Below, one piece after another: positions 24,901 through 44,900 of a stretch of DNA of 64,000 bases (positions are counted from its first letter, which is position 1; the number at the start of each line of letters is the position of its first letter). The stretch lies in NCBI GenBank assembly GCA_043228905.1, contig JBHGNT010000015.1:6820001-6884000 (forward strand). The letters run 5' to 3'. This stretch comes from Azolla caroliniana (taxonomy: Eukaryota; Plantae; Polypodiophyta). Both the position numbers and the translations under genes were made by a program. Under the pieces are notes generated by a model. It searched no databases. It worked only from the letters and a program-made list of their open reading frames with translations, and had not been told where the DNA came from.

Positions 24901-27900
24901 CTACACATGTAGGCTTCTGACCAGGATATTGCAAAGGAGTTAGTTATTTCAAAGAGAGAAATTTCAATTTATTTGACTTGAGAATCTTAATAGTATTGAT
25001 AACGAGTTTTTCTTTGCTTTTATACTTACATTGATTTTGGTTTTATCTGAAAGATTAGACAACATTTTCAGATGGAATCCCCAGTTTGGTCTTATTGCCC
25101 ATTTTGGCTTCTTAAAAAGACATTTATATATATCGATAATAATTCTACGTATGCAGTATGACAAAATATATCAGTGAAAGAAAAATATATTAATGTCTTT
25201 ATAAGAGGCCAAAACGGCCTGTACTACCACGAAATCAGAGATTATATCTGAAAACGTTTTGAGAACAAACCAAAATAAATGTAACTACGTAAAAAAGTCT
25301 GAAAAAGAGAAGCTATATCTTGTTATTCTTTTCCTCACCTTGGAAGTCCCAAATAATGACAGAAATAATTCTAATGTGCAAGTAAAGAAACAACTTTGTG
25401 TATTGATGAGTTTGAATATTACCACATCAGAACCGACAAAAGAGACTGCCTTGATGTCTGGATGATCACATAGAAGATTGACCACATCCTAATTGCAGAA
25501 AATCAGGGAATTAATATTCAATTGAACAGCATCCCAGATATAAAATCTGATTATACAATTTACAAGGAGCGATTTTTCTATAATGATAAATATTACATAC
25601 ATGAGTTCCATGTACAATATTTAACACACCAGGAGGCAAACCAGCTTCTGCTGCAAGTTCTGCCAACATCATAGCGGCACCTGTTCCAAGTGAATGTCAC
25701 ATTAGTTCGCTATCTTCATAATTAAATAATTCAAAACAGTACAAACTGTTTAACACAACTAATTTTTCAGATATTTTGACACAAGGAATATATTATAAAT
25801 TGATTATTAAACAAGCATGTTGATTAAGAATTGGCATGCCTGTAGACAGATACTCATATCCCAAATGTGGTTTAAGAATGCACAAGATAATGGTCATGCT
25901 GATTTAAAGATAAACTTTAATGCTTCAAAATTGAAAATACAAACCAACTGTGGCATTAAACTGACCTGGATCCTTTTCTGATGGTTTCAAGACGAACGTG
26001 TTTCCACAAGTCACTGCAATTGGGAACATCTGAATAAAAGCTCAGTTCAGACTGTATCAAGTTTGCAAGAGCTCTGTCAACACAGTACACAATAAACTTA
26101 TTTACCCAAAGTGGAATCATGGCAGGAAAGTTGAATGGACAGATGCCTGCACAAACACCTAATGGCTGCCTGATGCTGTATGTGTCAATGCCATTGGATA
26201 CATTTTCAACAAATTCACCCATTTGAAGAGTTGACATATTGCAGGAATGCTCAACCACCTCTGCATCCAAAAAAACCATTTTATGCATGGGTTTAGTATA
26301 TTGAAATCTTAGGTTGTATGCTGGTCCATTAAGAGACCAATTTCCTGCCATCTCTTACCCTCTTTCTCCTCTCCAAGTAGGAGTTGGCATTGATCTATTT
26401 ATAGGGTTTAAAGATTAATCAAACATGAAAATTATTCTATTAAATCTTTCTTAAACAATCTTTAATTAAAGTTCTAGAAGAAAAATATCTTAGCATAGAA
26501 CACGTGTTTAAGGTTTTGGCCAAATCCCTAATGTTTTGATTCAGGTATATCTCTTTTAAATACTTCTAATTAAACTTCTAAGCAGAATCTCTTAGTATTG
26601 GACACTTAGATTAGCTAATAAAGAAATCTCTACAGTTTTCATTTAGGCGTATTTATCACTTTAAACAAACTTTCTATATGCTCATTTTTGTTTATCTATT
26701 AAACATATACAATATAAAAAGTTGTTGGTCCTGAAATATAATAATAACAAACTTGATACCGATAACATTTTAGCAGATTAGTGTTCCTAATCTCTAGAAA
26801 ACACAGTTAGGTACTCAATCCCTGAGAACCCCTGATCCAAAGGTTCGTGGTTGGAGAAATGGATTAAATCGGACCACAATAATAAACACTGGCCAAATCG
26901 GCTATTACAATTCGGTTACAAGCACAAAAGGATTCCGCAACAGCTGAATCGGCTAATACACACAACACAGTCCAAATCGGCTAAACCAACGATTGGCTAT
27001 TAATCAACACGGCAATTACGAACTTGATTAAGAATTATCAATGGGCACAAAGGGTATTGTATACACAAAACTCTTCGATATTAAACTCTCAATATATATC
27101 CCCTGTATCGCTTCATATCTAATATTATTTCAGCTACATCAATATTTATGCTATTAACATTTTGGCTATTAATAATCTCCGGCTTCACACTGCTAGCTGT
27201 CCGATTTGGCTTCGGCTTCAGCTTTCATACACTAGCCGGCTTTCATATGTACCTAGGGTGGGAGTATCACTACCTGACCTTCGATAATCAAGTATACCAA
27301 CAAATCAAAGGAACAGCCATGGGCAGCAACTTCTCAGTTGTCTATGCATGCCTTTTCTTATCACACTTAGAAAACTCACAAACCACACCCCATCTCTTCT
27401 ATTTTACTAGGTACATAGATGATGCCTTCGGGGTTTGGACTGGTACGAAACCCCAACTCTTAGAATACCTCGGTTTCTATAGCCGTATGACCAATAACTC
27501 CATTAAACTTACGATCCATACGCCCCCCACTAGGCTCCCTTTCTTGGATATTTGGATTAATCTAGAGAACTCTAAGTTCTCTTTCAATTGTTTCCAAAAA
27601 CCATTAAATTCCTATCAATATCTTCCCTTCTCTTCAGACCATCCCATACACGTTAAACAAAATTTTATTTCAGATGAATTAAAATGCTACCTAGTTAGAG
27701 AAAGCACACACCTATAGGGTACTTAGAAATGAAAAAGCGTTTCTTCCTTAGACTCATTAGCCGAGGTTACCCGCCCCATTTCATCCTTAAGGCTTTTAAA
27801 AAACATCCTTTCTCCCTTAGGAATAATCTCCCTTACACCTACCATATTCAAGCTTAGGTACTCGAAAAACTCCCCTAAATTAGGCATCCACTCGTTTTTA

Positions 27901-29694
27901 TAAGACTTACATGTTGACCTTAGGCTAGATCCCCAACTAAAAGACATCCCTAAGCCTTTTATATGTTGGACCAAGTCAAAATCACTCTATTCTTATCTAG
28001 TCAAAACTAAATATATTGGATCCCCAAATCCCCATTAAAATGTCACACTTATCATTGGTATTTATCTAGTATAACTAAATATAACAAATCCCCAAAATCA
28101 TCCCTTCCCATCAAACTCATTAAGCTATCCCTCTCTACTATAACTACCTCCCTAACTCCCACATCCTCCTTTATACACATTCAAAAACCCTCTCTCCTCT
28201 TTTCTCTCTCTCTCTCGTGGATATGCAGCCCTGGGTGCTCTCGAAAGACAATGTGCACATTTGCAGTTCCAAGAGCCACGGACTAAGCTGTGGTTATTTG
28301 ATACACTTGTCACACCAACTCTTCTCTATGGAGTAGAGACATGGGGACCGAGTCTTAACAAGGCAAATCATTGGAAAGATTTAGAGAGACCTTTAGTGTC
28401 AATGATTGCTCGCATGATAAGGAGCAAAGCATCGGTGCCCCATGATATAATCCGGGCAGAGATGGGAGCAGCACCTATAATAACCGAGGCATTGTTCCGA
28501 TCAGTGACATTTATCCAACGTCTTTGGGAGCTCCCTAAACGAAGGTACCCAAGGTTGGCACTTATGTCATCAAGACAATTGGCTGAAAATGGAGACACTC
28601 ATTGTTGGTATGCTGAAATGCAGCAATGGTTCGAGTCACATGGCATGAGTATAAATGCACTACCCCCGTTCCAATATAGCTTGGACTGTCCCCATCTAAA
28701 TATGACCAAAGTGGAAAAGAATAGAGTGATCCGAACTGATATTATTAACTTAGAAAACAAGATAACATGGATCAGCCCCAAAATAGCACTTGGTACAAAG
28801 ATGGCCCACTATAAGACACACTTCTTACATACATCGGAGGATGGATTTGTCATAAGGCCACCTTATATGGACATACATCTATCCTATGAGTTGCGTAGTG
28901 TGATAGGGCAGCTGCGAACCTCATCACATCAGCTACAGATTGAGGTGGGCAGATATACACGACTACCTCTAGAAGAGAGAATTTGCCAATTGTGTCATCA
29001 AGGAGTGGAATCTGAAGAACACTACGTTTGTCATTGTAGTGTCTTTTATGAAATCAGAGGGAGATACCATTGCCTCTTTAAACAAGGCTTTGGCCCACTA
29101 CGCAAGGTAATGGAATATGAGGACCAAAGATGCCTAGGACTTTTCTTGCTCGAGCTCAAGAGACATCGGGAAAAGTTGTTGAAGAATACAGCCACACAAG
29201 CTCATCCACAAAGAACAATCACAACTTTCTTTAGCTCCATCACTCCTAATGCTAGAAGTCAACCCCAGGATACAGAAATGGGATCCAGACCAAGATATAA
29301 CAAAGGGGTTACGATTGATCGGGCAATGGCAATTTGCCGTGCACGTAGGCCCCGGCCCCATGGACCACGACCCCGACACCCTTGTCATCGAAAAATAAAA
29401 GCCATTATCTCCCGCCATCGTAGGTGCTTCCCTCGCTTTGGAGACATTTCCATTCTAGATCGACCTATGATAGAGATCTTTCGGAGACAAAGGCTACAAT
29501 ACACCTAACTTGAGAATCTCGCATGTGCCAAAAACCAGATTCTCTCGTCTCTTTTCTCTTCATCTTATTTACTTTTATATTTATTGTGTAATATTTACTT
29601 TATTTTGATTTGTTCTCAAAGACGAGAAAACATTTAAGATGTAATCTCTTATTCGGTCTTATAGGCCATTTTGGCCTCTTAAAAGACGTTAATA

Positions 29695-29755
<61 letters not shown>

Positions 29756-29918
29756 CTCTCTCTCTCTCTCTCTTCCATCCCCACCACTCCCCATTCTCTC
29801 TTCTTTCCTCTTCCCCTATATAAGCCTCTAACATTTTTGTATGGTCTTTAGCACTGATGAGCTCATATAGAGCGAAACATGTTTGCCATAAGACCTATTT
29901 CTTACATAAATTGAAGTT

Positions 29919-29991
<73 letters not shown>

Positions 29992-32900
29992 TTCTCCTCC
30001 TCCGATATTCTCTTTTGAACTATTCTTTAGATACCATACTATCTAACCTAATTATTCAACCGCCGAAGGTTATTCGCTCGCACTCCTTGCTTAGGCCATA
30101 AGGCCAACAACTACCCAAGGAGTGGAATCCGAAGAACACTATGTTTGTCACTGTAGTGTCTTTTATGAAATCAGAGGGAGATACCATTGCCTCTTTAAGC
30201 AAGGCTTTGGCTCACTACGCATGGTAATGGAATATGAGAACCAACGATGCCTAGGACTTTTCTTGCTAGAGCTCAAGAGACATCGGGAAAAGTTGTTGAA
30301 GAATACAGCCACAGAAGCTCATCCACAAAGAACAATCACAACTTTCTTTAGCCCCATCACTCCTACTAATGCTACAAGTCAATCACGGGATACACAAATG
30401 GGCTACAATAGCTACAATATATCTAACTTGAGAATCTCACATGTGCTGAAAACTAGATTCCCTCGTCTCTTTTTATCTTATATACTTTTATATTTACGGC
30501 GTATTATTTACTTCTTTTTTATTTGTTGTTCTCAAAGACGAGACAACATTTAAGATGTAATCTCTTGTTTTGTCTTATAGGCCATTTTGGCCTCTTAAAA
30601 GATGTTAATATATCTTTCTTCTTTCTTCTAACTGTATTAATGCTCTGCTCGACCATCTTATAGAATCCTTTGCTGGTCTTTTACCGATTTTCATAGTTTG
30701 CAATTCAATCGCTAGTGCCGACCATTACTTCCATACTGCTGCCGAACTTTCTTCAATTCTGTTCTCCAGCCAACTGCGATGACGCTCGACAATAGGATTT
30801 ATTTTTTTTGTATGCATTTCATCATGTGCCTGCACTGCCTGTTTCTCTTGCTTCAGCCACTTGATCATCCTTACTGCCGATTGAGGCTGCACTTCATAGG
30901 CCTTCCGCTCCATTTGAAAAGTTTCCTGCAGCTGGTCCAATGTCCGCTTGGACATTTCACTAATTTCCTCTCTGATCGAAATCGGCTTTCAATTCCTTGT
31001 GCTCCTTGTACAAGCCGTTCGATTTCTGCATTGGCAAGTTTCTGTATCCTCTCTCTTTGTTGCCATAATTCCTCATTTTCCTCCGCCAGTTCCCTGTTTT
31101 CTGCATTTAACCGATCATTGTCCTCCGTCAGCTGCCTGTTTTCTTCATTGAACCGATCGTTTTTCTTCTTCAGCCGAGTAAATCCCTCGTTGAGCCACTC
31201 AACTTCTCCTTTTAGCTTAGTAATTTCCTCATCAGCCGCTTTCCTCAGCTTCTTCTCCTTTTCCGCGACGTCCGTTTGCACTGCCAGCTCTTCTTTTAAG
31301 CCCTCAATTCGGGTATCCTGCCAGCCCCTTCTCTGTTTGTGCCACGTCCTCATCAGCCCGCCCGGCTGGCACAAGATTCAATGAAACTCCGTTGGCCTGA
31401 GCCCCTGCGACTATCCTCAACTTTTCCTCCAATAGCTGGATTTGGTTCTTGGACCCTATCCAACCTTTGGATACCTGATTGGCCACCTTTCTGGTGTTCT
31501 TAACCCTTTCGACCATATCTTTTGCTACACGCCGGACCGTGGAGAACTCCTGTATTTTGGCTAACGCCATATTCAATGCCGGCATCCCCTCATGCTCGAA
31601 TTCGGTCTGGCCAGGCCTATTCGGCTTCATGACTTTCCTATCCATTTCTCTGTTATTAACTTGGAAAACAAGATAACATGGATCAGCCCCAAAATATCAC
31701 TTGGTATACACGAATAACTCTAGAAGAAAGAATTTGCCAATTGTGTCATCAAGGAGTGGAATTCGAAGAACATTACGTTTGTCATTGTAGTGTCTTTTAT
31801 GAAATCAGAGGGAGATACCATTGCCTCTTTAAACAAGGCTTTGGCCCGCTACGCAAGGTAATGGAATATGAGGACCAACAGTGCCTAGGACTTTTCTTGC
31901 TAGAGCTCAAGAGACATCGGGAAAAGTTGTTGAAGAATACAGCCACACAAGCTCATCCACAAAGAACAATCACAACTTTCTTTAGCCTTGTTATATTAAC
32001 TGTTATATTAGTCCTATAGTATCAACAAATTCAAAAACTAGCCTTGTTCGTGCTGGTTCGTATCTCGAGGTTGATTCGTACCTGCCCTAGTCAACCTAGT
32101 CAAGTCGGCCCATTTACTTCCGACACTTGCCAAATCGGCTACGGGGTTTAAAAGGCCTCCTTTTCGGCTTCCGCCGATTCGGCTGATACACTTCGGCCCT
32201 TATCTTTGTCGACTACGGCCGATTCGGCCGAGTCTTCTTTTCCAGGCTTAGTCTGCTATCGGCAGATTCCTTCCGGCTCGTTTTCAGCCTGTCGGCAAAC
32301 AGACTCATCGGTGTAGCTAGGACCTATAGACAATGACATGTCATGATAACAACATTCGGAAAAGAAGCAGACAGAAAGCTCATGAAATGCACATATGAGT
32401 TGGATAGCAGAATAAGCTTCAAGTTGGTACCATGAATCTCTGAACGAAGACTGGAACATCAGATATCCCAATTGCCGCAGCACAAGAGGGGGAAAAGATG
32501 GCTCTAGACTGAATTCTTCACTCATCCTTCTCATAGAAAAAGAAGAAACTTGCTTTATTCTCCAATAAAAGGGCACTCAAGAGCAACAGGATATAGGTAG
32601 ATGAAGAGATCATATCAGTTCCAGTAGCACACAACAAAGAAAACATGCCATGAGTGATGGATGCAAGAAAGGCAGGAAAACAGGTTGTTTATGGACATGG
32701 TTGGATTATTATTACTGAGAAGAGAACCACAGACAATGTTATGGCCTATAAGACCAGGCACATGACTATAAGGAATTGCAATGGCTCCCACAAGACAGAA
32801 GGTTTTTTGAACATACCTTCAAGGATGCACATTGAGATGAATACAAAGCTATATTAGGGCATTGTAGCAAACTCCCCGATGTACATGGATATAGATACTG

Positions 32901-35900
32901 GTCTATTCCATCCTCGACCATGCACACTAGAAAGTACTAGAAGTTACGGTAAGCAGATGTGTTGTACTGAAAGAAAGAATATCTTAACGTCTTTTAAGAG
33001 GACAAAAAGGCCTATAAGACTGAATAAGAGATTAGATCTTAAGCGTTGTCTCGCCTTTGAGAACAACAAATCAAAAGACGAGACAACACTTAAGATGCAA
33101 TCTCTTGTTTGGTCTTATAGGCCATTTTGGCCTCTTAAAAGACGTTAATATATCTTTCTTTCTTTCTTTCTTCTATCCCTTATACCCAAGATAAAAGAGT
33201 TCATTACCTCTAGTAGATTTCTTGTCTTCGCTGCAGATCATGCATATATAGACTTCAAAGGAAGTGGAGAACTATACGAAGATACTCTTGAAAGGAAGTG
33301 GTGGGCTGTCTTCCCAGAGTGGTTGGCTTTCATTCTCCGATGTATCTTCCATGGATTTCATTAAGTCAAACCATTGAAATGTGCCTAAACTTACATCTAA
33401 CCATTGTGAAGTAAGAGATACAGATAGACAAATATGCACGGAAATCTATGGAAGAACAGATATGTCAATTGTGTCATTGTAGCATGGAATCAGAAGAACA
33501 CCATGTCTGCAATGTTCTATTTTTTATGAAATATGACGGACAATAGTACAGCCACAATAAAGACCCGATCACAACTTTCGTTAGCTCCACTCCTTTTAAT
33601 GCTACAAGTCAATCGAGAGTCACAAGTTGCTTTCCACGCTTTGGAGACCTTCTATCTCGGATCAGCCCAAGTTGGAGATCTTTAGAAGGCAGAACTTTAA
33701 ACTTCTAAGCTCAAAATCATAGCTGTTTAGGTTATGAGAATCTTTGGTACCTTATATTTAGTTGTAAAGATGTTAGTGTTTCCTATAATCTGCAGTTTTT
33801 ATTATGCCTAGGTATTGAGAGCTATTGAAATGAATTTATGAAGTCTCTATTAAATTTGTGTATTAAAATCTAAATCTCGTTTCAAACTCCTTCCAACTTG
33901 AAACTAATTGAAATTGCATTACATAGGTGTAAATGTTTAGAAATTCTCAATTAAACAAATTAACAATTTACTCTATTAGTACAGACAATAGAGAAATATG
34001 AAGATAAAAATAAATAGAAACAATTGCAAAATAGAAAAACATTCTATTGGGGGAAATTACCATCCGAAGGAGACCTTGTTTAGAAGAAGAATAGGTAATT
34101 TTCACTCACAAAATGTCTCACTTGAGATATTTATTGTTGGTTTACACAAATCCAAATCCTAAAGAACTAACCTAAACCACGAAACACATCACCACGTGCA
34201 TCTGCTAACGTCTTCCCTTGCTCCAAGGTGATATTCTTTGCCAGCTCATCCTGCAATCATATGGTTTAAAGTAACATGATATACCTATTCGTTTCAAGGA
34301 AAAGTATTGTTTCTGTTAAGTAATCTCACCATGTCTCTCCTTATGAGCTCTTGAAATTTCAACATGATCCGCTGCCTGGTTGTCACAGGAGTGTCTCTCC
34401 AACCAGGATATGCTTGTTTAGCAGTCTCAACTGCTGTTTTGAACTCATCATCTGTTGTTAAAGGAACTCTACAAACTGTATCTTGTGTTGCCTGCTTGAT
34501 GCATATGAAGCATCTACATTAGGTTTTGGGAGTAAAGGGATAAGTATATCCATAATCGATCAAGTTTTTCCAACTGACCGGATTAATGACATCTATCCAT
34601 TCCTTGGCCTGTGAGTCTAAAAACTCTCCACCTATCAGTAATTTTACCTTTGGCTGCAGCATAAATATTAGATAACTATGTATCAATAGAGAAACAAAAC
34701 TTCACATGTAATAGGAAAGTATAATATTTAGGTTTCCCTTACGTTTTAACTGCTTTACACAAAAGAGGAATTTATGCTTTCAATGGATATGGAACCAAAC
34801 CATAAAATGAATAGGTAAGGACATAAATTAGGAGGCATAATATGTTTTCATACAAATAGGTAAGGACATAAATTAAGATGCATACTAGGTTTTCAAACAA
34901 ATAGGTAAGGACATAAATTAAGGGGCATGCTAGGTTTTCATACAAATAGGTAAGGACATCAATTAAGAGCCATGCTTCATACAAATAGGTAAGGAGAATT
35001 TGAGAGCTAAATTTGCAACGATAGTTCCAATAGAGTCAGGGCAAGATATGAACTCTTGTTATGTGAAAAAAATTAAGAGACCCCACTTGTGAGTCATGGA
35101 TTGATGCTTAGACCCCACTGCAAAGGCAATATCAGGGCGTGTAGCAACCATCGCATATATCAAACTGCCAACAGCTGAACCATATGGAACCTTAGCCATT
35201 TCAGCCTTCTCATCATCAGATCTAGGGCTGTCTTCTGTACTAAGTTTCAAATATGGAGGCAATGGAACCCCAATTGTTTCCCCCCCTCCATATTGAAACA
35301 CTGCAAAACCTTAGAGATATACTCCTGCTGAGATAGAAAGAGTACCCCTTTCGACCGGTTTCGGAGTATTTGCATGCCAAGGATGTGATTTGCATCACAT
35401 CCTTGGCATGCAAAACCTTCAGGCTGCTGCATATATATGTCTTCATGTAGATCGCCATGTAAAAAGGCGGTCTTCACATCCATCTGTATGAGCTCCATAT
35501 CTTCAGCTGCAACTAAGCCCAAAATGATTCTTAATGTAGTCATCTTGACTACAGGCGAGAAGATCTCATCAAAATCAACTCCATATTCCTGCTTGTATCC
35601 TTTTGCAACCAATCTTGCTTTGTACTTTGGCGAGGAATCAGAAATGACCTTCATTTTATAAACCCATTTGCATGGAAGTGTTTTCTGCCCTTTAGGCAAT
35701 TGCACCAAATCCCAAGTGTCATTTTTCTCAAGAGATTCCATCTCTGACAACATGGCTTTATACCATTTCTTATTGTCATGTCTGTCCATTGCTTCCTTGA
35801 AGCAAGTCGGTTCGCCACAATCAGTTACCATGACATAATCAGCCACACTATTTGCATCAGGAACAAATCTGTCAGGCTGTCTAGTAACTCTAGACGATCT

Positions 35901-38900
35901 CCTAACCCAATGTTCATTGTTTGGTAGCTGTTGAGCCTGCAAATCATCATTTTCAATTTGCAGTCAAGGCATTTCAGCCTGCAAATCGGCATTAACAGCT
36001 TGCTGTTCTAGCTGTTCCTGCACATTTGGTGGCTCATCATTATTGGCAAAGGCTGGCTGATCATTTCCAACCTCATTTTCTGCATTTGCAGGTAAGTTTA
36101 CAGCAGGTGTTTGCTGCTGTACAGCGGGCACATTTTCCTGTCTAAAAGGTATTTCTTCTCGGAATACAACCCTACGTACTTCCTCAGTCTTTTCGGGTTG
36201 TTTATGCATGCGATTTTCCCGGAAGATAACATCATTGCTGCGTACTATTTTCCTTTTCTCAAGATCCCACAATCTATACCCCATTTCACCCTCGTCACCA
36301 TATCCTAGGAAAATACATTTGCAGGACTTTGGCTCAAGTTTGTTGCGTTCTTCTTTACGAATGTGCACAAAAGCCTCACAGCCAAACATTCTCAAGTGAG
36401 CATATGAAGGTGGCTTGCCCGACCACGCTTCTTGGGGTATTCCCCCTCCCAAAGACCTGTTAGGTGACCGATTAATCAAGTGAATAGCTGTCATAACAGC
36501 CTCTGCCCAAAAACCATGGGGTAACACAGCATGAGACAGCATAGTACGGACCTTATATTGAATAGTCTGATTCATACGCTCTGCAACTCCATTTTGGGGT
36601 GGATTATAAGGGGCAGTGAGTTCCCTCTTTATCCCTTTGCTGTCACAAAATGCTTGAAAAGCCTTGGACACATATTCCCCACCATTGTCAGAGTGAAGAC
36701 ACTTAAGTGTCTTATCAATTTGATTCTCAACTAATGCCAAAAATGTTCGAAACTTGTCGAGCACTTCATCCTTGCTACAAATAGGGTAAGCCCATACCTT
36801 CCGTGTAGCGTCATCGACAAAAGTGACTAAGTATTTCTTTCCCCCTAATGATAGCCCTGGCATCTGACATACATCTGAATGTACTAACTCAAGCAGGGAC
36901 GACTTCAGCGAAAGAGACTTTTTATGAGATGTTTGTACATGTTTACCATAAATGCAATGATCACAATGTTCAAAATCAGCATAACGAAGACATGGCAAGT
37001 AACCCAAACGAGACAATACTTTCATACCAGTTTCACTGATGTGTCCCAACCGGCCATGCCACAAAGAAACACTGGGCTGCTCGTTATGGCAACAACATGG
37101 TCACTCACACTAGATACATGGAGAGGATACAAAGTATCACTTTTACTACCCTTGGCAATAACTCTAGATCCCTTACAAATCTTCCCTTTCCCATCACCAA
37201 AGATTGTGTGAAATCCATCATCATCTAGCTGTCCTGTGCTAATCATGCTCTTCTTGAGCTGGGGTACATTCCGTACATGCTGAAGTGTGAAAGCAGAACC
37301 ATGCTGAAACTGTAATTGCACAGTGCCAATACCTGCAATTTCACATGCATAGTTGTCCCCAAGATGGACAACACCATGTCGACCCCTTGTGTAATCTGAA
37401 AACCACTCACGATGAGGGGTGACGTGAAAAGAAGCACCGGAATCGAGTATCCAAGTGTGCATGTCACCATCCGTATCTGCAAGTAAAGCATGTTCTCTAT
37501 GGCATGATGAAACAAAGAGTATATCATTTCCACTATCACTATCATGAGTGACTATATTCACCTCTTCAATTTTAGTATTGCCTTTCCTCGGTTGAATGTC
37601 TCTCTTTTCTTCTATGAAATCATCTATCTTCTTGCCCTTTCCTTTCTCTTTCTTCCATTTGAAAAATCACGTTTAAAGTGACCCTTTTTGCCACAGTGAT
37701 GGCATTCTACATCTTTACCATGTGATTTACTACGGCCATAACTATCAGATTTGCCTCTTTGTTGTGACCTACCCCTCATATGCAACGCACTAGAGGACTT
37801 ATTGGATGCATTGTTTTGCCGACTCATCTCTTCCATGAGTAGAGAACACTCTACATCGGCATAAAGAAGCATCACATTTGAATTGCTCATAGCAGTCCTG
37901 AAAGTATCCCAACTTTCTGGCAAGGTGCAAAGTAAAAACGTGGCCTTAAACTCATCATCAATGATGAATTTCAAGGCAACCAGCTGGCTGAAAATGGAAT
38001 TGAACTCACTCAGGTGAGTTGACATGGGTGTGCCCTCTGTCATACGCAAATCCATAAGTTTCTTAACCCAATAAACTTTGCTAGCTGCCGTCTTTTGGGC
38101 ATACAATTCCTCTAGTCTAGTCCATATAGAATAGGCGGAGTCCAAACCTTCGATATTAAAAAGCAAGGCATCAGAGATTGACAACTCAATAGTCAAGCGT
38201 GCAAGCTCGTTCAACTCTTGCCAATCATCTTGGTCCATATTTGTAGGCTTTACCCCTTTGACTTTTATAGGCTTTGCATGCTTCTTTTGCAACAGGATGT
38301 TATAGCATTGCTTTTTCCATACCGCAAAGTTATGTGCACCCTCAAGCTTCTTGATGTCCATAAGGTGGCTACTATCACTGCTGCTAGTCATGATTTCTTA
38401 GCCCAAACAAAGGACCAAACCTGCTCTGTAGAAAACATGACCTGCTATGCAAAAAACCCTAAACTCTGCTTTGCAGAAAACCTTAAACTCCGCTCTACAA
38501 AAATCCCTAAACTCTGCTCTGCAAAAAACCCTAAACTCTGCTCTGTAGAAAACCCTAAACTCTACTCTGTAGAAAACCTTAAACCTTGCTCTGCATAAAA
38601 CCTTAAACTTTGCTCTGCATAAAACCTTAAACTCTGCCTGTAGAAAACTCTAAACTCTGCTCTACAGAAAACCCTAAACTTTTCTCTACATAAAACCCTA
38701 AACCCTGCTCTGATACTAGTTTGAAGGCAGCACGAGGATTAGGGTTTAGGTCCAAAACAATCGGGGAGAGAGTTTGAGTGAGAGACAAAGGGAGAGAGAG
38801 AGAGAGATGTACGCTGTCTTGGGTACAAAGAGTGTACCTCGTTTTTTGTTTTTAGATATTATGTATATACAAGTCAAAAGTGTGCTACGAGTGTGTTCAC

Positions 38901-41900
38901 ACTCATGCACTAATAAAAGGCACGATGGCCCTTTATTCCCAACATCCATTACAAGGTTTGGATTTAAATGTGTACTTGCAGAAAACTTACTTTGTAGGAA
39001 AAAGGATTCCAAGATGTATGGAAACAGAAAGAAACAAAGAAACAAAGATATATTAACGTTTTTTAAGAGGCCAGAATGGCCTATAAGACCAAACAAGAGA
39101 TTACATCTTACGTGTCGTCTCATCTTTGAGAACAACAAATCAAAACAAAATAAATGTTACTAAGTAAACATAAAAGAAAATAAGATAAAAGAGACTAAAG
39201 AGTCTTAGTATCTCCATCTTAGTTCATAAAAGACACTACAGTGACAGATATAGTGATCTTCGGATTCCACTCCTTGCTGACACAATTGGCAAATTCTTTC
39301 TTGTAGAGGTATTCGTGCATATCTGCCTATCGCAATCTCTGACTAATGTGATGAAGTTCACAGCGCCCTATAACACAGCACAGCGCATAGGATAGATGTA
39401 TATCCATATAATGTGGCCTGATGATGAATCCATCCTCCGATGTGTGTAAAAAGTGTTTTGTAGTGGGCCATCTTCGTACCGAGTGATATTTTGGGGCTGC
39501 TCCATGTTATCTTGCTTTCAATATCAGTTTAGATGGGGACAGTCCAAGTTATATCGGAACGGGGGAAGTGCATTTATCCTTATGCCATGTGACTCGAACC
39601 ATTACTGCATTTCAGCAAACCCAACAATGAGTTCAACCAGTTGTCTTGATGAAATAAGTGCTAACCTTGAGTACCTTCCTTTAGGGATCCCAAAGGCGTT
39701 CGATACAGGTCACTTATGAAAACAGTGCCTCAGTGATTATAGGGGCTGCTCCCATCTCTGCCCGATTTATATCATGGGGCACCTATGCTTTGCTCTTTAT
39801 GACGTGCACAATCATTGACACGAAAGGTCTCTCTAAATCTTTCTAGTAATTCTTCTTAAGACTCTATGATACTTTATCGATATAGAGACTGAAGCAAGTG
39901 GGTGATAGTGTGCATCCTTGTTTCACTCTGATTGTGCTAGCCACCGCCTCTGACAAACCCTTGGAAGACCTCACTTTTCTTGACATGGATTCATATAGTG
40001 CATAGACTCCCCATTGCATATTTGTAGGGACACCAAGGGCTTCTAGCCATTGCATAACCGGAGCATAGGGCACATTGTCAAAGGTTTTTCGGAAATCCGC
40101 AAAGCAGCAATAAATCCTCTTTATATGGGTTCTGCCCTCTTCGATAAGGGCTCAGAGGGTCAATATGTGATCCAAAGTTGTGAATACCTGCCGAAAGCTT
40201 GCTTGTCTCGCTCAAAGACATCAATTTCACTCTGCCCATATACTCGATTATGACTCTAGAATCATGTGTTAGGTGTAAAGGCCCATAGTTCACAAATTAG
40301 GTAATTATTCGTATATATGAACACATTGTTCACCTGGACAGGACACCTCCTTTTGTAATGTGAACACACCTCTTTCTTTGTAGGGTTAACTAATATAATA
40401 ACCTTTTTTTCTTGTGTACCAATCAAGGCTGTTGGGTACACCCAAAAATCTGTGTCTCTACTTTCATCTCTACTCCAGTCTTGTTTACTGAACGTCATCA
40501 ATCAATAGTTGCTCCCTCAAACATCCCTCTTTACCTTTAACTGGTATCAGAGCCAATTCTCTTTCCTCTGCTTTGCTGTTTTTTTTTTAGATTCAGAATC
40601 AGCAAAAAACACAGTTTAAATAAAATAAAATAAAATCTGTCAAACCCTTTCCTATTGGTATTCTGCTGAATTTTCTGAAGGCATCTGTCATAAATCTTGG
40701 TAGCAATGGCCTCCACTTCAACTGAAATGAAAAACCTCTTTGAAATCAAGAGATTTGATGGAAAAGGTTTCGAATTATGGAAAGAGCGTATGCTGGGCAT
40801 CCTCTTTCTGAGAGATTGTGAAGATGCTCTCGTGGAAAAGTAACCAGAGAGCATGGAAAATGATGCTTGGAACACTCTGAATAAGAAAGCCATTACATAT
40901 ATTAAAATGGCTGTTTCTGATGAAATTCTTGTAGATATAAAGGGCTTGATTACTGCCCATAAAGTTTGGGAGAAACTTAAGACAACTTACGAGAATACTA
41001 CGCCTATGAATCAGGTGCATTTGATGAGAAAACTTGCCAGTATGAGGCTTGATGAGTCAAAAGGTGCAACAGAGCATCTATCGTTATTCACATGTACTCT
41101 CTCCCAACTACAAGACTCAGGATTACCAGCTTTTGATGACAAGCTCAAAGCTATCTTCCTACTTATGACTTTACCCGATTCGTGGGAAACATTAGTTGTT
41201 TCACTATCTAATAGCCCCACCTTGACCTTCGATGGTGTGCGGGGCTCTATTCTCAGTGAAGAGATTAGAAGACAATCTAGTGGAGAAGGTAGTGGTTCAG
41301 CATACAATATTAGGGGGAGATATGATAAGAGCAACCCAAATGTAGGACAAAGAAATAGAAGTAAGAGTAGAGGGAAAGGAAAGCAACAAGATATCACATG
41401 CTATCAGTGTGGCCGTAAAGGTCATAAGAAACCTGATTGTAGATATTGGAAGATGGAACTAGAAAGGAAGAAGAATGTAGGAGAGAAGAAAAATAAAGAT
41501 GATAAATTTAATAAAACAAAGAAAGCTAACATGGCTTCAAATGTTATCATCAAAGACCTATCTGGTGAAGATGGTGATGTACTTTGTATTATAGGTGATG
41601 CCTTCATAGCTCATGTTCAAGACATACAAATCACCAAAACAGATGTTATTGATGCTTTATTGTCAATTGATGATGGATTGACACAGACATGGATAGTAGA
41701 CTTTGGGGCTTCTTTTCATGTTACTCCATGTTTGGAGTGCTTTACCACATTTGACGCAGGCAATTATGGAAAAGTTTATCTTGGTAACAATAGTGCTTGC
41801 AATATTGATGGTATTGGAACCATACACTTGTCTTTGGATAATGGTCAAGAGCTCGTGCTCAAAGATGTTAGGTATGTACCTCGCATTAAGAAAAGTTTGC

Positions 41901-44900
41901 TATCTGTAGAACAGATGGATTTGCATGGTTACACCACATTATTTGGTGGTGGATTGTGGAAACTAAAGAAAGGATCTATGGTTATTGTGAAAGGTTGCAA
42001 AAAGGGCACTTTGTACTGTTTGCAATGTAAAGCTTTACCTGGAAAGTGTCTTGCTATTGCTGAATTTGACTCTCGTTTAGAGCTTTGGCATAAGAGATTA
42101 GGACATATGAGCCAAAAAGGACTTGAAGTCCTTTCTGCTCTAAAAAGATTTGATGTTAAAGGATCAAAGCTGATTTTTTGTAATGATTGTCTATTTGGCA
42201 AACAAGCGAGAAATTCTTATTATTTTGGTGTCTCTCGTAAACCAAATGTGCTAGATTTGGTGCATTCTGATGTATGTAGCATGCCTGTAAAATCCTTGGG
42301 CGGTGCTGCATATTTTATTTCCTTTATCGATGATTATTCTAGGAAGATTTAGGTGTACTTGATGAAAAAGAAAGGTGATGCATTTAATGCATTTAAATCT
42401 TTTCATGCATTTGTGACTACCCAAAAAGGGACAAAACTGAAATGTCTCAGAACAGATAATGGGGGTGAGTTTACATCTGCAGAATTTAAGTCCTATTGTG
42501 ACTTACATGGTATTAAAAGAGAGCTTACAGCTCCATATAACCCTTCATCAAATGGTGTGGCACAAAGATATAATAGGACCTTGTGTGAGCGAGTACGGTG
42601 CATGCTGTCCACAGCTAATCTCCCTCGTGAATTTTGGGGAGAAGCATTAAAAACCGCGGTTCATATATGTAATCATTCTCCCAACAAGTCCTTAAAGAAT
42701 GGAATCCCTGAGGAGGTTTGGTCTAGCAAACCAGCCTCATATGACCATTTACGAATTTTCAGTTGTGATGCATTTGTACACATTAGAAGTGAGCTGAGAA
42801 ATAAGCTCGATGCTAAGTCCACCATGGGCATTTTTATGGGCTATGGTGATGAAGGTGAAATGGGCTATAGGATTTGGTTACCTCAGTCCAGAAAAATTGT
42901 ACGCAGCCGGGATGTTGTTTTTAATGAAGAAAAATTGCTGAAAAATGCTTGTTCCTCTGTTGGGAACTCTAAGAGCGTTACATTTCAGCAATTACAGCCA
43001 TCCACAAAATCTGAAAATAAACCTAATGATGCTATACCAAAGGTTGAATATGATGATCGACCGGTTATCTTTGAACCAAAAGAAGTTGGACAGCAAAGAG
43101 ATGCTCATGAAGGTATTGGTCAACGAGATGAAGGTACTGAAGAACAAAATATAGATGTTGAACAACATGTTGGACATGGTTTGCAACAGCCAGAAAGTGC
43201 TGAAACTGATTTTCCTCCAGATTTAGAACCAATCCCAGAAAATACTGATCATTGGGTACGCAGGTCTAATCATTCAAGGAGGCAGGTATATAGATATGAC
43301 CCCTCTTTGCATTATGTCATGCTATCAAATGAGGGTGAACCTCTTACTTATAAGGAGGCAATGTCATGTGAACTTAGCAGTAAGTGGGAGCTTGCAATGC
43401 AAGAAGAAATAAAATCTTTGTATGCAAATGATACATGGGATCTTGTGTCCTTACCTCAAGGAAGAAAAGCTCTTCCAAATAAGTGGGTCTATAAGGTAAA
43501 GGAAATTGAAGGTAAACCAAAATACAAGGCAAGATTAGTTGCCAAGGGTTATGCACAGAAGGAAGGTATTGACTTCCAAGAGGTCTTCTGTCCTGTTGTG
43601 AAGATGACCACACTTCGTGTGCTATTTGCTCTCACTGCAATGCTTAATTTGGAGTTGTACCAAATGGATGTAAAGACCACTTTTTTGCATGGTGATATTG
43701 ATGACGAGATCTACATGAAACAACCTGAGGGTTTTGTAGTCCCTAACAAGGAGCATTTGGTATGCAAACTAAAACGTAGCTTGTATGGCCTAAAACAAGC
43801 ACCACAACAGTGGTATAAGAAGTTTGATACTTTTATGCTTTCTCAAGGCTTTGATCGTAGCTATGCAGATCATTGTTTATACACGAAAAAGGATATTGAT
43901 GACAGTCCCATCATACTTGTTCTATATGTGGATGATATGTTGCTAGCTAGGAAAAGAAAGACTAGCCTTGATGCTCTAAAAGATCAATTGAAATCGGTCT
44001 TCTCTATGAAAGATTTGGGAAATGCAGAGCATATTTTGGGCATGAGAATTAGTAGAAACAAAAAGGACAATTTGTTGTATTTATCACAAGAAAAGTACAT
44101 TGAAAAAGTGCTTAACAGATTTAATATGGCAAAAGCAAAGTCTCTTGGAGTTCCTTTACCGCCATATCTTAAACTTAGCAAGGCTGATGGTCCAAAGGAT
44201 GTGATAGGAGACTTGCTGAAGATATTGGCATGTCTGTTAGTACTCCTGTGTTAGGATGTGATAGCCAGAGTGTTGTGTATCTGGCTAAGAATGCCATGTT
44301 TCATTCGCGCACTAAACACATTGATGTGCGACATCACTTTATCAGACAAGTTTTGGAGGATGGTCTAGTCACATTGACCAAGATCAAAACACAAGATAAT
44401 CCTACAGATATTCTCACCAAAAGTCTTGGCAAAGCTCAACATGAGCATTGCATACAGTTAGTGGGAGTTACTTGAATGCTCACATCGGACCTTTAAGTGG
44501 GAGGTTGTTAGGTGTAAAGGCCCGTAGTTCACAAATTAGGTAATTATTCGTATATGTGAACACATTGTTCACCTGGACAGGACACCTCCTTTTGTAATGT
44601 GAACACACCTCTTTCTTTGTAGGGTTAACTAATATAATAACCTTTTTTCTTGTGTACCAATCAAGGCGGTTGGGTACACCCAAAAATCTGTGTCTCTACT
44701 CTCATCTCTACTCCAGTCTTGTTTACTGAACGTCATCAATCAATAGCTACTCCCTCAAACATCCCTCTTTACCTTTATCATGCTATATAGTTTAGCCAAG
44801 TAATGGCCAATATTAACTGTTCTAGAGTTGCTTGGCATATGGGGTCTCCACTCTTGAGGATTGGCACAATGGTATGCTTTGTACATCTAGTAGGGAAACC

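What the first reader, a model, noticed from the sequence alone, without database searches (positions are those of the whole stretch)
29843..29895. Hammerhead ribozyme hidden in intron 5 of ALDH6B
Seen: stem I GGUCUU/AAGACC plus GCA/UGC with a bulge, the invariant core CUGAUGA (29854-29860), stem II GCUC-AUAUA-GAGC, GAAA (29874-29877) and a self-complementary stem III ACAUGU. The predicted cleavage is after U29883, a GUU triplet that may be a C>T-decayed GUC. Established: minimal type I hammerheads with a palindromic stem III, which often cleave as dimers, are a hallmark of Penelope-like elements. Inference: this ribozyme belongs to the PLE RT at 27257-27720 and was pushed ~1.5 kb away by the LINE at 28217-29753. 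It is antisense to the host gene, so the ALDH6B pre-mRNA does not contain it.
Basis: partly seen in the sequence, partly recalled or inferred. Interest (0 to 1): 0.85.

Follow-up and report, generated by a model that had tools for sequence, protein, structure and literature searches.

The report
Ribozyme of telomere-escaped fern retroelement
This intron, in what is likely a fern, holds an intact hammerhead motif (likely a self-cutting RNA) belonging to a broken jumping gene with no detectable DNA-cutting enzyme; its family sits in ordinary DNA while a sister family is joined to chromosome-tip repeats, so it likely inserts at internal DNA breaks instead.

Summary
The hammerhead is real and belongs to the Penelope-like element (PLE) upstream. 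Relatives with an intact RT (94-100% identical) carry it 241-243 nt after the RT stop; here a 1.54-kb LINE split that spacing. Stem I and the stem III palindrome covary between families.

Two claims fail. GUU is not a decayed GUC: position 17 is U in 16 of 16 loci with the motif. The motif is canonical-like, not a minimal hammerhead.

The element has two ORFs, no detectable endonuclease, and an RT related to Selaginella Sm/Coprina RTs. A sister family carries CCCTAAA repeats and ends on telomeric arrays just before ORF1. The window's family lacks those repeats, often ends at the same position, and sits on non-telomeric DNA, including this intron. It likely primes at internal DNA breaks. One contig begins exactly at the predicted cleavage site, a weak hint of activity. 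Cleavage is untested, and GUU creates a 10-nt palindrome predicted to compete with the active fold.

PLE hammerheads are known, including in Selaginella. I found no fern report, but three key papers were unavailable. Earlier scan notes describe similar elements elsewhere in this genome.

The parts
29843..29895 (+). Type I hammerhead motif: 6-bp distal and 3-bp proximal stem I, intact core, 4-bp stem II, 2-bp stem III with palindromic 2-nt loop; predicted cleavage after U29883 (GUU)
29875..29884 (+). Perfect 10-nt palindrome spanning A13-A14, stem III, U17 and U1.1; it exists because N17 is U and is kept in all four families checked
29817..29823 (+). TATA-box-like motif 37 nt upstream of core C3; 37-39 nt in five copies from four families; likely the pLTR promoter (inferred)
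27262..28038 (+). 5'-truncated 3' part of the PLE RT ORF (RT core to thumb, stop at 28036-38, no C-terminal endonuclease); 14 mismatches to L003, a 2-nt insertion near 27705 and deletions near 27823-27828, so non-coding
28039..28216 (+). PLE 3' UTR / pseudo-LTR, first part, ending in a CT tract
28217..29753 (+). 5'-truncated LINE with a (TTTC)n tail, inserted in the PLE's CT tract; same family occurs several more times in the window
29754..30119 (+). PLE pseudo-LTR, second part (TATA, hammerhead, CT tract, 3'-end motif); ends 15-20 nt before where ORF1 of the next tandem unit would start
30079..30105 (+). Invariant 10-nt motif (11 of 11 aligned copies) followed by a short hairpin, just upstream of the recurrent 3' end; covariation test inconclusive
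30116..30627 (+). Second 5'-truncated copy of the same LINE, abutting the PLE 3' end with a 4-nt microhomology
26261..34171 (-). Host intron (7.9 kb) of the ALDH6B/MMSDH gene, probably intron 5

Best explanation
The motif is the intact, family-consensus type I hammerhead in the 3' pseudo-LTR of a dead, 5'-truncated copy of a Penelope-like retroelement with no detectable endonuclease, in what is likely a fern, pushed 1.54 kb from its RT by a LINE; its family likely descends from telomere-attaching Selaginella/Coprina-type elements and likely now inserts at internal DNA breaks, with the ribozyme predicted to trim the RNA's 5' end under dimer or protein control. Shown: the element's anatomy in relatives (pLTR with TATA, hammerhead and 3'-end motif; ORF1 of about 745 aa; RT ORF2 of about 620 aa in the -1 frame, with a slippery heptamer and hairpin at the overlap). 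Also shown: the covariation, invariant GUU, telomeric joins in the sister family and non-telomeric joins in this one. Inferred: transcription from the TATA box; RT initiation inside the RNA, 11-20 nt before the next ORF1 start, the position where the sister family base-pairs with telomeric DNA; use of chance 3'-OH ends; and cleavage after U17. Because U17 extends the palindrome to 10 nt, the ribozyme is predicted to be weak alone.
For: Linkage: the same motif follows the RT stop on the same strand in L001, L005 and L007 (241-243 nt), L006, L013 and L024 (479-485 nt, with a partial pLTR duplication), L011 (386), L014 (1060) and L021 (214). It precedes ORF1 in L002, L003, L008 and L009. Structure under selection: 4 of 16 pairs change on both sides, including the palindrome swap AU to UA; 95.8% of cells pair, against 28-45% for slid controls. 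Loose ends in two runs show a further family with another compensatory stem I change. No endonuclease: the RT ends after the thumb, with only RVT_1 in Pfam and no GIY-YIG-like motif in any of the 24 plant-clade rows, while the same regex hits 6 of 35 outgroup rows. ORF1 has no significant Pfam or PDB match, and its conserved domain is all-helical in a low-confidence model (pLDDT 53.5). Lineage: P0001 is 37% identical over 581 aa to Selaginella moellendorffii P0264, the best hit of the profile search outside the close fern-type and gymnosperm set. In a quick tree Selaginella is sister to gymnosperm plus fern-type RTs (SH-aLRT 98/96), and the telomeric family branches outside the 9-row group holding families A and B (97). 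Telomere contrast: arrays of 3 or more CCCTAAA occur in 2 of 27 loci, both from the sister family. L017's 3' end runs into one just before the ORF1 start, and L018's 5' end is capped by one. Between hammerhead and ORF1 that family has 10 CCCTAAA; families A and B have 0. Family A ends at the equivalent site on unrelated flanks in the window, L007, L013 and L024, two X14 contigs and three X9 contigs. One X9 contig starts exactly at nt 1.1, the predicted 3' cleavage product, on an unrelated flank. Literature precedent: internal RT initiation without target homology, and a protein-assisted hammerhead, in an Anolis PLE (PMC11167929).
Against: No cleavage was tested, and Rfam gathering is not reached. 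Cofolding prefers a dimer through the 10-nt palindrome (-33.2 kcal/mol), which sequesters A13, A14 and U17, over the active-like double hammerhead (-30.2). The cleavage-site junction is one contig among 13 'before' loose ends shown, with 18 rows hidden. Not all copies end at the ORF1-proximal site: L001 and L021/L022 end in the CT tract, L011 about 75 nt inside ORF1, and X10/X13 contigs at 1559-1590. The loci are 1.6-8.4 kb stretches from unnamed assemblies, several probably the same genomic copy, so subtelomeric positions cannot be excluded except for the window copy. Covariation rests on about four families, and related sequences inflate the shuffle test; L008's 3' stem I strand is one column out of register in A2. 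The tree is a quick one, midpoint-rooted, with unnamed outgroups and no fungal Coprina reference. In the Anolis PLE, hammerhead mutants did not affect insertion in vitro and no RNA reads ended at the cleavage site (PMC11167929).
Confidence: 0.62

Rival explanations
1. Same element, but the hammerhead is catalytically silent or nearly so. It is kept as a structural or dimerisation signal for RT binding, with U17 selected because it makes a 10-nt self-complementary patch.
For: The 10-nt palindrome is kept in 4 of 4 families checked, and the extended dimer is predicted more stable than the active-like dimer. Hammerhead cleavage was dispensable for Anolis PLE insertion in vitro (PMC11167929). PLE min-HHRs cleave poorly in vitro (PMC4209133). 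L021/L022 have a broken core.
Against: The catalytic core is intact in 14 of the 16 motif-bearing loci while flanks diverge. GUU is an active NUH triplet (PMC3138052 passages) and is the listed site in 10 of 26 Hydra-clade PLE hammerhead rows (Craig File S2, counted by eye). One genomic copy starts exactly at the cleavage site.
Confidence: 0.2
2. The element reaches internal sites by borrowing a LINE endonuclease, through trans-mobilisation or template switching from LINE RNA to PLE RNA, rather than by using chance breaks.
For: In the window the PLE 3' end abuts a 5'-truncated LINE with a 4-nt microhomology, the geometry of a template-switch chimera. The same LINE family also inserted in the PLE's CT tract.
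Against: The 3' flanks of L007, L013 and L024 do not match this LINE. No convincing target-site duplication was found for the window copy, L010, L011, L013 or L024, though that test used the PLE ends and not the LINE tail.
Confidence: 0.14
3. One reading: a minimal hammerhead whose GUC decayed to GUU in this copy.
For: The RT of this copy is dead, and GUC is the textbook triplet (recalled).
Against: U17 in 16 of 16 loci and 5 letter-identical copies. In runs X9, X10 and X13 every counted T>C place is accounted for elsewhere, so none is at N17; in X2 one T>C place is not shown, and contigs drop rare variants.
Confidence: 0.02
4. The motif has been co-opted to regulate ALDH6B, for example through an antisense transcript.
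For: The TATA motif and ribozyme are intact inside a host intron.
Against: It is antisense to the pre-mRNA. Intactness is explained by youth, since the RT is about 98% identical to L003. No orthologous insertion was seen.
Confidence: 0.02

Closest known systems
Telomere-associated EN-minus PLEs of Selaginella moellendorffii (Coprina-group Sm1/Sm2; 'Selagine1' in Craig et al. 2021 Fig. S1) with canonical type I hammerheads (Cervera & de la Pena 2014, PMC4209133)
   Same: RT lineage (37% over 581 aa to Selaginella P0264; about half the residues identical by eye to the two Selagine1 rows seen), no endonuclease, hammerhead in the pLTR, partial tandem copies; sister family C shows the telomere join and 5' telomeric cap.
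   Different: The window's family has no telomeric repeats near its 3' end and sits on non-telomeric DNA, including a gene intron; GUU with a 10-nt palindrome. I could not see the Selaginella hammerhead sequence (figures not held).
Coprina-1_Alen of Ascochyta lentis (PMC13159263) and Athena/Terminon elements (PMC6431247)
   Same: Two ORFs (helical, disordered ORF1 plus RT-thumb ORF2), no GIY-YIG, terminal repeats; ORF1 frameshift noted as optional in Craig Fig. 1 legend.
   Different: Those attach to chromosome ends through complementary telomeric repeats next to the hammerhead; in family C the join lies about 450 nt downstream of the hammerhead, and families A/B lack the repeats.
PLE-X of Chara and Selaginella (Craig et al. 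2021, PMC8557442)
   Same: Precedent for EN-minus plant PLEs with hammerheads at non-telomeric sites.
   Different: PLE-X belongs to the Chlamys clade (CxC motif, insertion-in-fingers, long N-terminal extension; rDNA targeting in Selaginella); none of these features is seen here, and the listed hammerheads differ.
Rfam Hammerhead_HH9 (RF02275) and canonical metazoan type I hammerheads
   Same: Near-identical core and stem II, short palindromic stem III, internal loop in stem I.
   Different: Proximal stem I only 3 bp, U17, 25.3 bits against a gathering score of 52.
Poseidon PLE of Anolis carolinensis (Frangieh et al. 2024, PMC11167929)
   Same: Recurrent 3' end at an AC-rich site next to a stem-loop; hammerhead near the pLTR-ORF junction.
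   Different: That element has its own GIY-YIG endonuclease and a single ORF, and initiates inside the ORF.

Membership tests
Type I hammerhead ribozyme | Core CUGANGA / GAAA / NUH with stems I-III in type I topology | tested here: met
   (0 of 300 shuffles)
Type I hammerhead ribozyme | Compensatory changes in the stems | tested here: met
   3 pairs of distal stem I and the palindrome pair; stem II and proximal stem I never vary; about four families only
Type I hammerhead ribozyme | Self-cleavage after N17 | not testable with these tools
   one contig starts at nt 1.1; folding predicts a competing dimer
Rfam HH9 (RF02275) | Gathering score 52 bits | tested here: not met
   25.3 bits; 0 hits in 20 of the 27 loci scanned
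Minimal PLE hammerhead (min-HHR, Cervera & de la Pena 2014) | [quoted passage not shown] | tested here: not met
   4-bp helix II, no extra nucleotide, 2-bp helix III
Penelope-like element | PLE-type RT with DK motif and thumb; pseudo-LTR or partial tandem structure with hammerhead | tested here: met
Coprina/Sm EN-minus PLE | RT groups with Selaginella Sm-type RT | tested here: met
   quick tree, no fungal Coprina reference included
Coprina/Sm EN-minus PLE | No GIY-YIG endonuclease | tested here: met
   (ORF1 model is low confidence)
Coprina/Sm EN-minus PLE | Reverse-complement telomeric repeats near the 3' end and attachment to telomeres | tested here: not met
   absent in the window's family A and in B, present in sister family C; so filed as a derivative of the lineage, not as a telomere-associated member
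Naiad/Chlamys/PLE-X | N-terminal GIY-YIG and/or CxC motif, insertion-in-fingers domain | tested here: not met
   P0001 has no CxC and the same RT3-RT4 spacing as Selagine1, by eye; no GIY-YIG
Non-LTR retrozyme | Small non-coding tandem repeat with a hammerhead per unit | tested here: not met
   single motif in the window, embedded in an RT-coding element

The most novel reading that the evidence does not exclude
A fern lineage of telomere-type, endonuclease-less Penelope-like elements has left the telomere. It kept the ancestral RT initiation site just before ORF1 but lost the telomere-complementary repeats there, and it now spreads through genes and repeats by capturing internal DNA breaks. 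Its invariant GUU hammerhead works as a dimer- or protein-gated switch that sets the RNA's 5' end. The telomeric sister family in the same plant group gives a natural before/after pair.
Probability: 0.4. Interest if true: 0.75.

Novelty: new variant of a known kind. Interest (0 to 1): 0.5.

Why it matters
How endonuclease-less, telomerase-related retroelements obtain a primer, and what PLE hammerheads do, are both open questions (PMC8557442, PMC11167929). Closely related families (about 68% RT identity) that differ in telomere-complementary repeats but share the 3'-end position would let one test which RNA features switch priming from telomeres to internal breaks. They come with intact ORFs and a short ribozyme that is easy to assay. 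The finding also extends the Selaginella-type lineage to ferns, with RT relatives in Ginkgo and Cryptomeria. The hammerhead by itself is an expected PLE feature and has no apparent role for ALDH6B.

Tried and rejected
No whole genome is held, so copy number and chromosomal distribution could not be measured. Rfam at gathering: 0 hits in the window and in 20 of 27 loci. Pfam on the window RT fragments: 0 families. Viral contigs: 43 pattern matches, none confirmed. Expression: no RNA holder listed; the one raw RNA run laid gave 8 reads, none at 95% or more, from about 12% of the run, which is no evidence either way. Target-site duplications: none convincing in 5 copies. Missing host exon 2: not located. 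Covariation of the 3'-end hairpin: inconclusive (189 of 500 shuffles reach the pair count; family C is misaligned). ORF1: no atlas hit, no PDB hit, 3 homologues, all unnamed; the model was too poor for a fold search, so none was run. The RT profile has no PDB hit. My first guess of Chlamys/PLE-X was rejected on motifs and tree. The idea that (CT)n replaced the telomeric repeats as priming site fits only some ends (L001, L021/L022, L023) and was not adopted. The L008 energy is invalid (register shift), and the family B/C ORF1 translations were out of frame (redone). The careful tree did not finish. Literature searches listed no paper on fern PLEs; the 40 listed of 178 papers had 0 occurrences of 'penelope'. 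Gladyshev & Arkhipova 2007, Arkhipova 2017 and Lin 2016 are not held.

Full report
Observation. The motif is present as described. A full type I descriptor finds it once in the window and in 0 of 300 shuffles, whereas the bare core pattern is common by chance (43 of 100 shuffles). Rfam's best match is HH9, E = 0.0046 but 25.3 bits against 52. The host is an ALDH6B/MMSDH gene on the minus strand. One exon is 96% identical to Ceratopteris and Adiantum proteins, 92-94% to gymnosperm proteins and up to 90% to angiosperm proteins, so the source is likely a fern. Seventeen exons map from 34654 down to about 18850. Exon 1 ends in phase 1 and the next mapped exon starts in phase 0, so at least one short exon is unseen; with exactly one, the intron 34171-26261 is intron 5.

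Link to the PLE. The RT fragment has 36 longer relatives, the best a 620-aa protein at 96%. A scan of metagenome contigs gave 27 loci. Window 27262-28216 and 29756-30119 align as one continuous stretch of these elements, with the LINE 28217-29753 in between. RT stop to core is 241-243 nt in L001, L005 and L007, and 282 nt here once the LINE is removed. The motif occurs in 16 of 27 loci. Of the other 11, most end or are truncated before it, and L020 has it deleted. Several loci are probably the same genomic copy, so independent evidence is about four families (A = window type; B = L008/L009/L011; C = L014-L018; L021/L022), plus one more seen only as loose ends.

GUU and covariation. N17 is U in 16 of 16 loci, and five carry the 53-nt motif letter for letter. 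In three of four runs laid, all counted T>C places lie elsewhere; in X2 one is not shown, and contigs drop rare variants. The decayed-GUC idea fails. On 15 sequences (9 distinct), 4 of 16 pairs change on both sides: three in distal stem I, and the palindrome centre AU to UA. Slid controls pair at 28-45% against 95.8%. Relatedness inflates the shuffle test, and L008 is one column out of register. U17 extends the palindrome to 10 nt in 4 of 4 families, and the resulting dimer (-33.2 kcal/mol) is predicted more stable than the active-like double hammerhead (-30.2). GUU is an accepted NUH triplet and common in Hydra-clade PLE hammerheads (10 of 26 rows). One X9 contig begins exactly at nt 1.1 on unrelated DNA: a single case among 13 such loose ends shown, with 18 rows hidden.

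The element. Intact relatives have a pLTR with a TATA motif 37-39 nt before the core, ORF1 of 745-934 aa (35-49% identical between families), and ORF2 in the -1 frame, with a conserved slippery heptamer in families A, B and C and a hairpin after it. No endonuclease is detectable. The profile search over 1.84 billion representatives gives, after the close fern-type and gymnosperm set, a Selaginella moellendorffii protein (37% over 581 aa). Its motifs match the 'Selagine1' rows of Craig et al. Fig. S1. A quick tree of 59 rows places Selaginella sister to Ginkgo, Cryptomeria and fern-type RTs, and family C outside the group holding A and B. It is midpoint-rooted, the careful search did not finish, and it lacks fungal Coprina references.

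Telomeric versus internal. Family C has 10 CCCTAAA between hammerhead and ORF1. L017 runs into a perfect array at a short repeat just before the ORF1 start, and L018 is 5'-capped by one. This is the pattern described for Coprina/Athena (PMC8557442, PMC6431247, PMC13159263). Families A and B have no such repeats, and none of the other 22 loci, nor the window, holds an array. Family A copies end at the equivalent site, 11-20 nt before ORF1, in the window, L007, L013, L024, two X14 contigs and three X9 contigs. Other copies end elsewhere: L001 and L021/L022 in the CT tract, L011 inside ORF1, and X10/X13 contigs at 1559-1590. An invariant 10-nt motif and a small hairpin precede the site (11 of 11; covariation inconclusive). 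An earlier scan note (e1-10619883) pointed me to this motif as a possible initiation signal; I had already mapped the recurrent end. The loci are short, so only the window copy is shown to be far from a telomeric array (none in 64 kb).

Mechanism. Inferred: transcription from the pLTR, frameshifted RT, and initiation inside the RNA at the ancestral telomere-pairing site, primed by internal DNA ends. Internal initiation without target homology, and a protein-assisted, dispensable hammerhead, are shown for an Anolis PLE (PMC11167929). Rivals are a silent, structural hammerhead (0.2) and LINE-assisted insertion (0.14); the latter is suggested by the LINE abutting the 3' end here but not seen in L007, L013 or L024.

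What is known. PLE hammerheads, including canonical ones in Selaginella, are published (PMC4209133), and EN-minus PLEs at internal sites have a precedent in another clade (PLE-X, PMC8557442). Nine searches listed no paper on fern PLEs. Gladyshev & Arkhipova 2007, Arkhipova 2017 and Lin 2016 were not available. I recall that Lin 2016 may mention EN-minus PLEs in gymnosperms, and note e1-10599046 names conifer ones, so the gymnosperm extension may be known.

Papers seen. PMC4209133: parts 1-2 of 4 of the text, no figures or supplements. PMC8557442: outline, passages, section 9, supplement parts 1-2 of 59 and two supplement searches. PMC11167929: abstract and main text. Passages only: PMC13159263, bioRxiv 10.64898/2026.07.22.740005 (66), PMC12477314, PMC6431247, PMC3138052, PMC9370799, PMC11539532. 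The unseen Cervera figure 3A and supplements bear on how close the Selaginella hammerhead is. Hammerhead numbering and TATA spacing are recalled.

Verdict. A real, intact PLE hammerhead of a known kind. The more interesting object is its carrier, a non-telomeric derivative of a telomere-type, endonuclease-less lineage with a telomeric sister family. New variant of a known kind; interest 0.5.

Noticed in passing
L002:3683-3760, L007:2418, L008:4882, L014:2792: Conserved -1 frameshift-type slippery heptamer and long hairpin at the ORF1/ORF2 overlap, with compensatory-looking differences in family C; L012 has a variant heptamer.
   Followed up: partly
proteins P0018, P0136-P0142 (Cryptomeria japonica); P0017, P0022, P0023 (Ginkgo-type gene ids): Intact RTs of the same lineage are annotated as uncharacterized proteins, mostly on 15-52 kb scaffolds with neighbouring locus numbers, which suggests tandem or terminal arrays.
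   Followed up: partly
window 29817-29850: The TATA spacing would put the start site near or inside the 5' strand of stem I (recalled spacing), so a transcript's first hammerhead may lack distal stem I while the read-through copy is complete.
   Followed up: no
L014:445-1530, L015, L017: Family C ORF1 encodes long Asn-Pro-Lys repeats made of telomere-like CCCTAA units.
   Followed up: no
L021:1-191: Inverted 5' RT fragment next to a family member, the inverted arrangement typical of PLE insertions.
   Followed up: no
window 30628-31700: Minus-strand ORF remnants with coiled-coil-like matches only, between LINE fragments; origin unknown.
   Followed up: partly
window 26850-27260 and 32060-32330: Both sides of the PLE/LINE cluster hold repeats of a shared 12-19 nt motif, possibly a split non-autonomous DNA element.
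   Followed up: partly
window 23700-46000: At least eight further fragments of the same (TTTC)n-tailed LINE, several in the ALDH6B introns on both strands, plus two near-complete copia-like elements at about 35200-38400 and 40800-44300.
   Followed up: no
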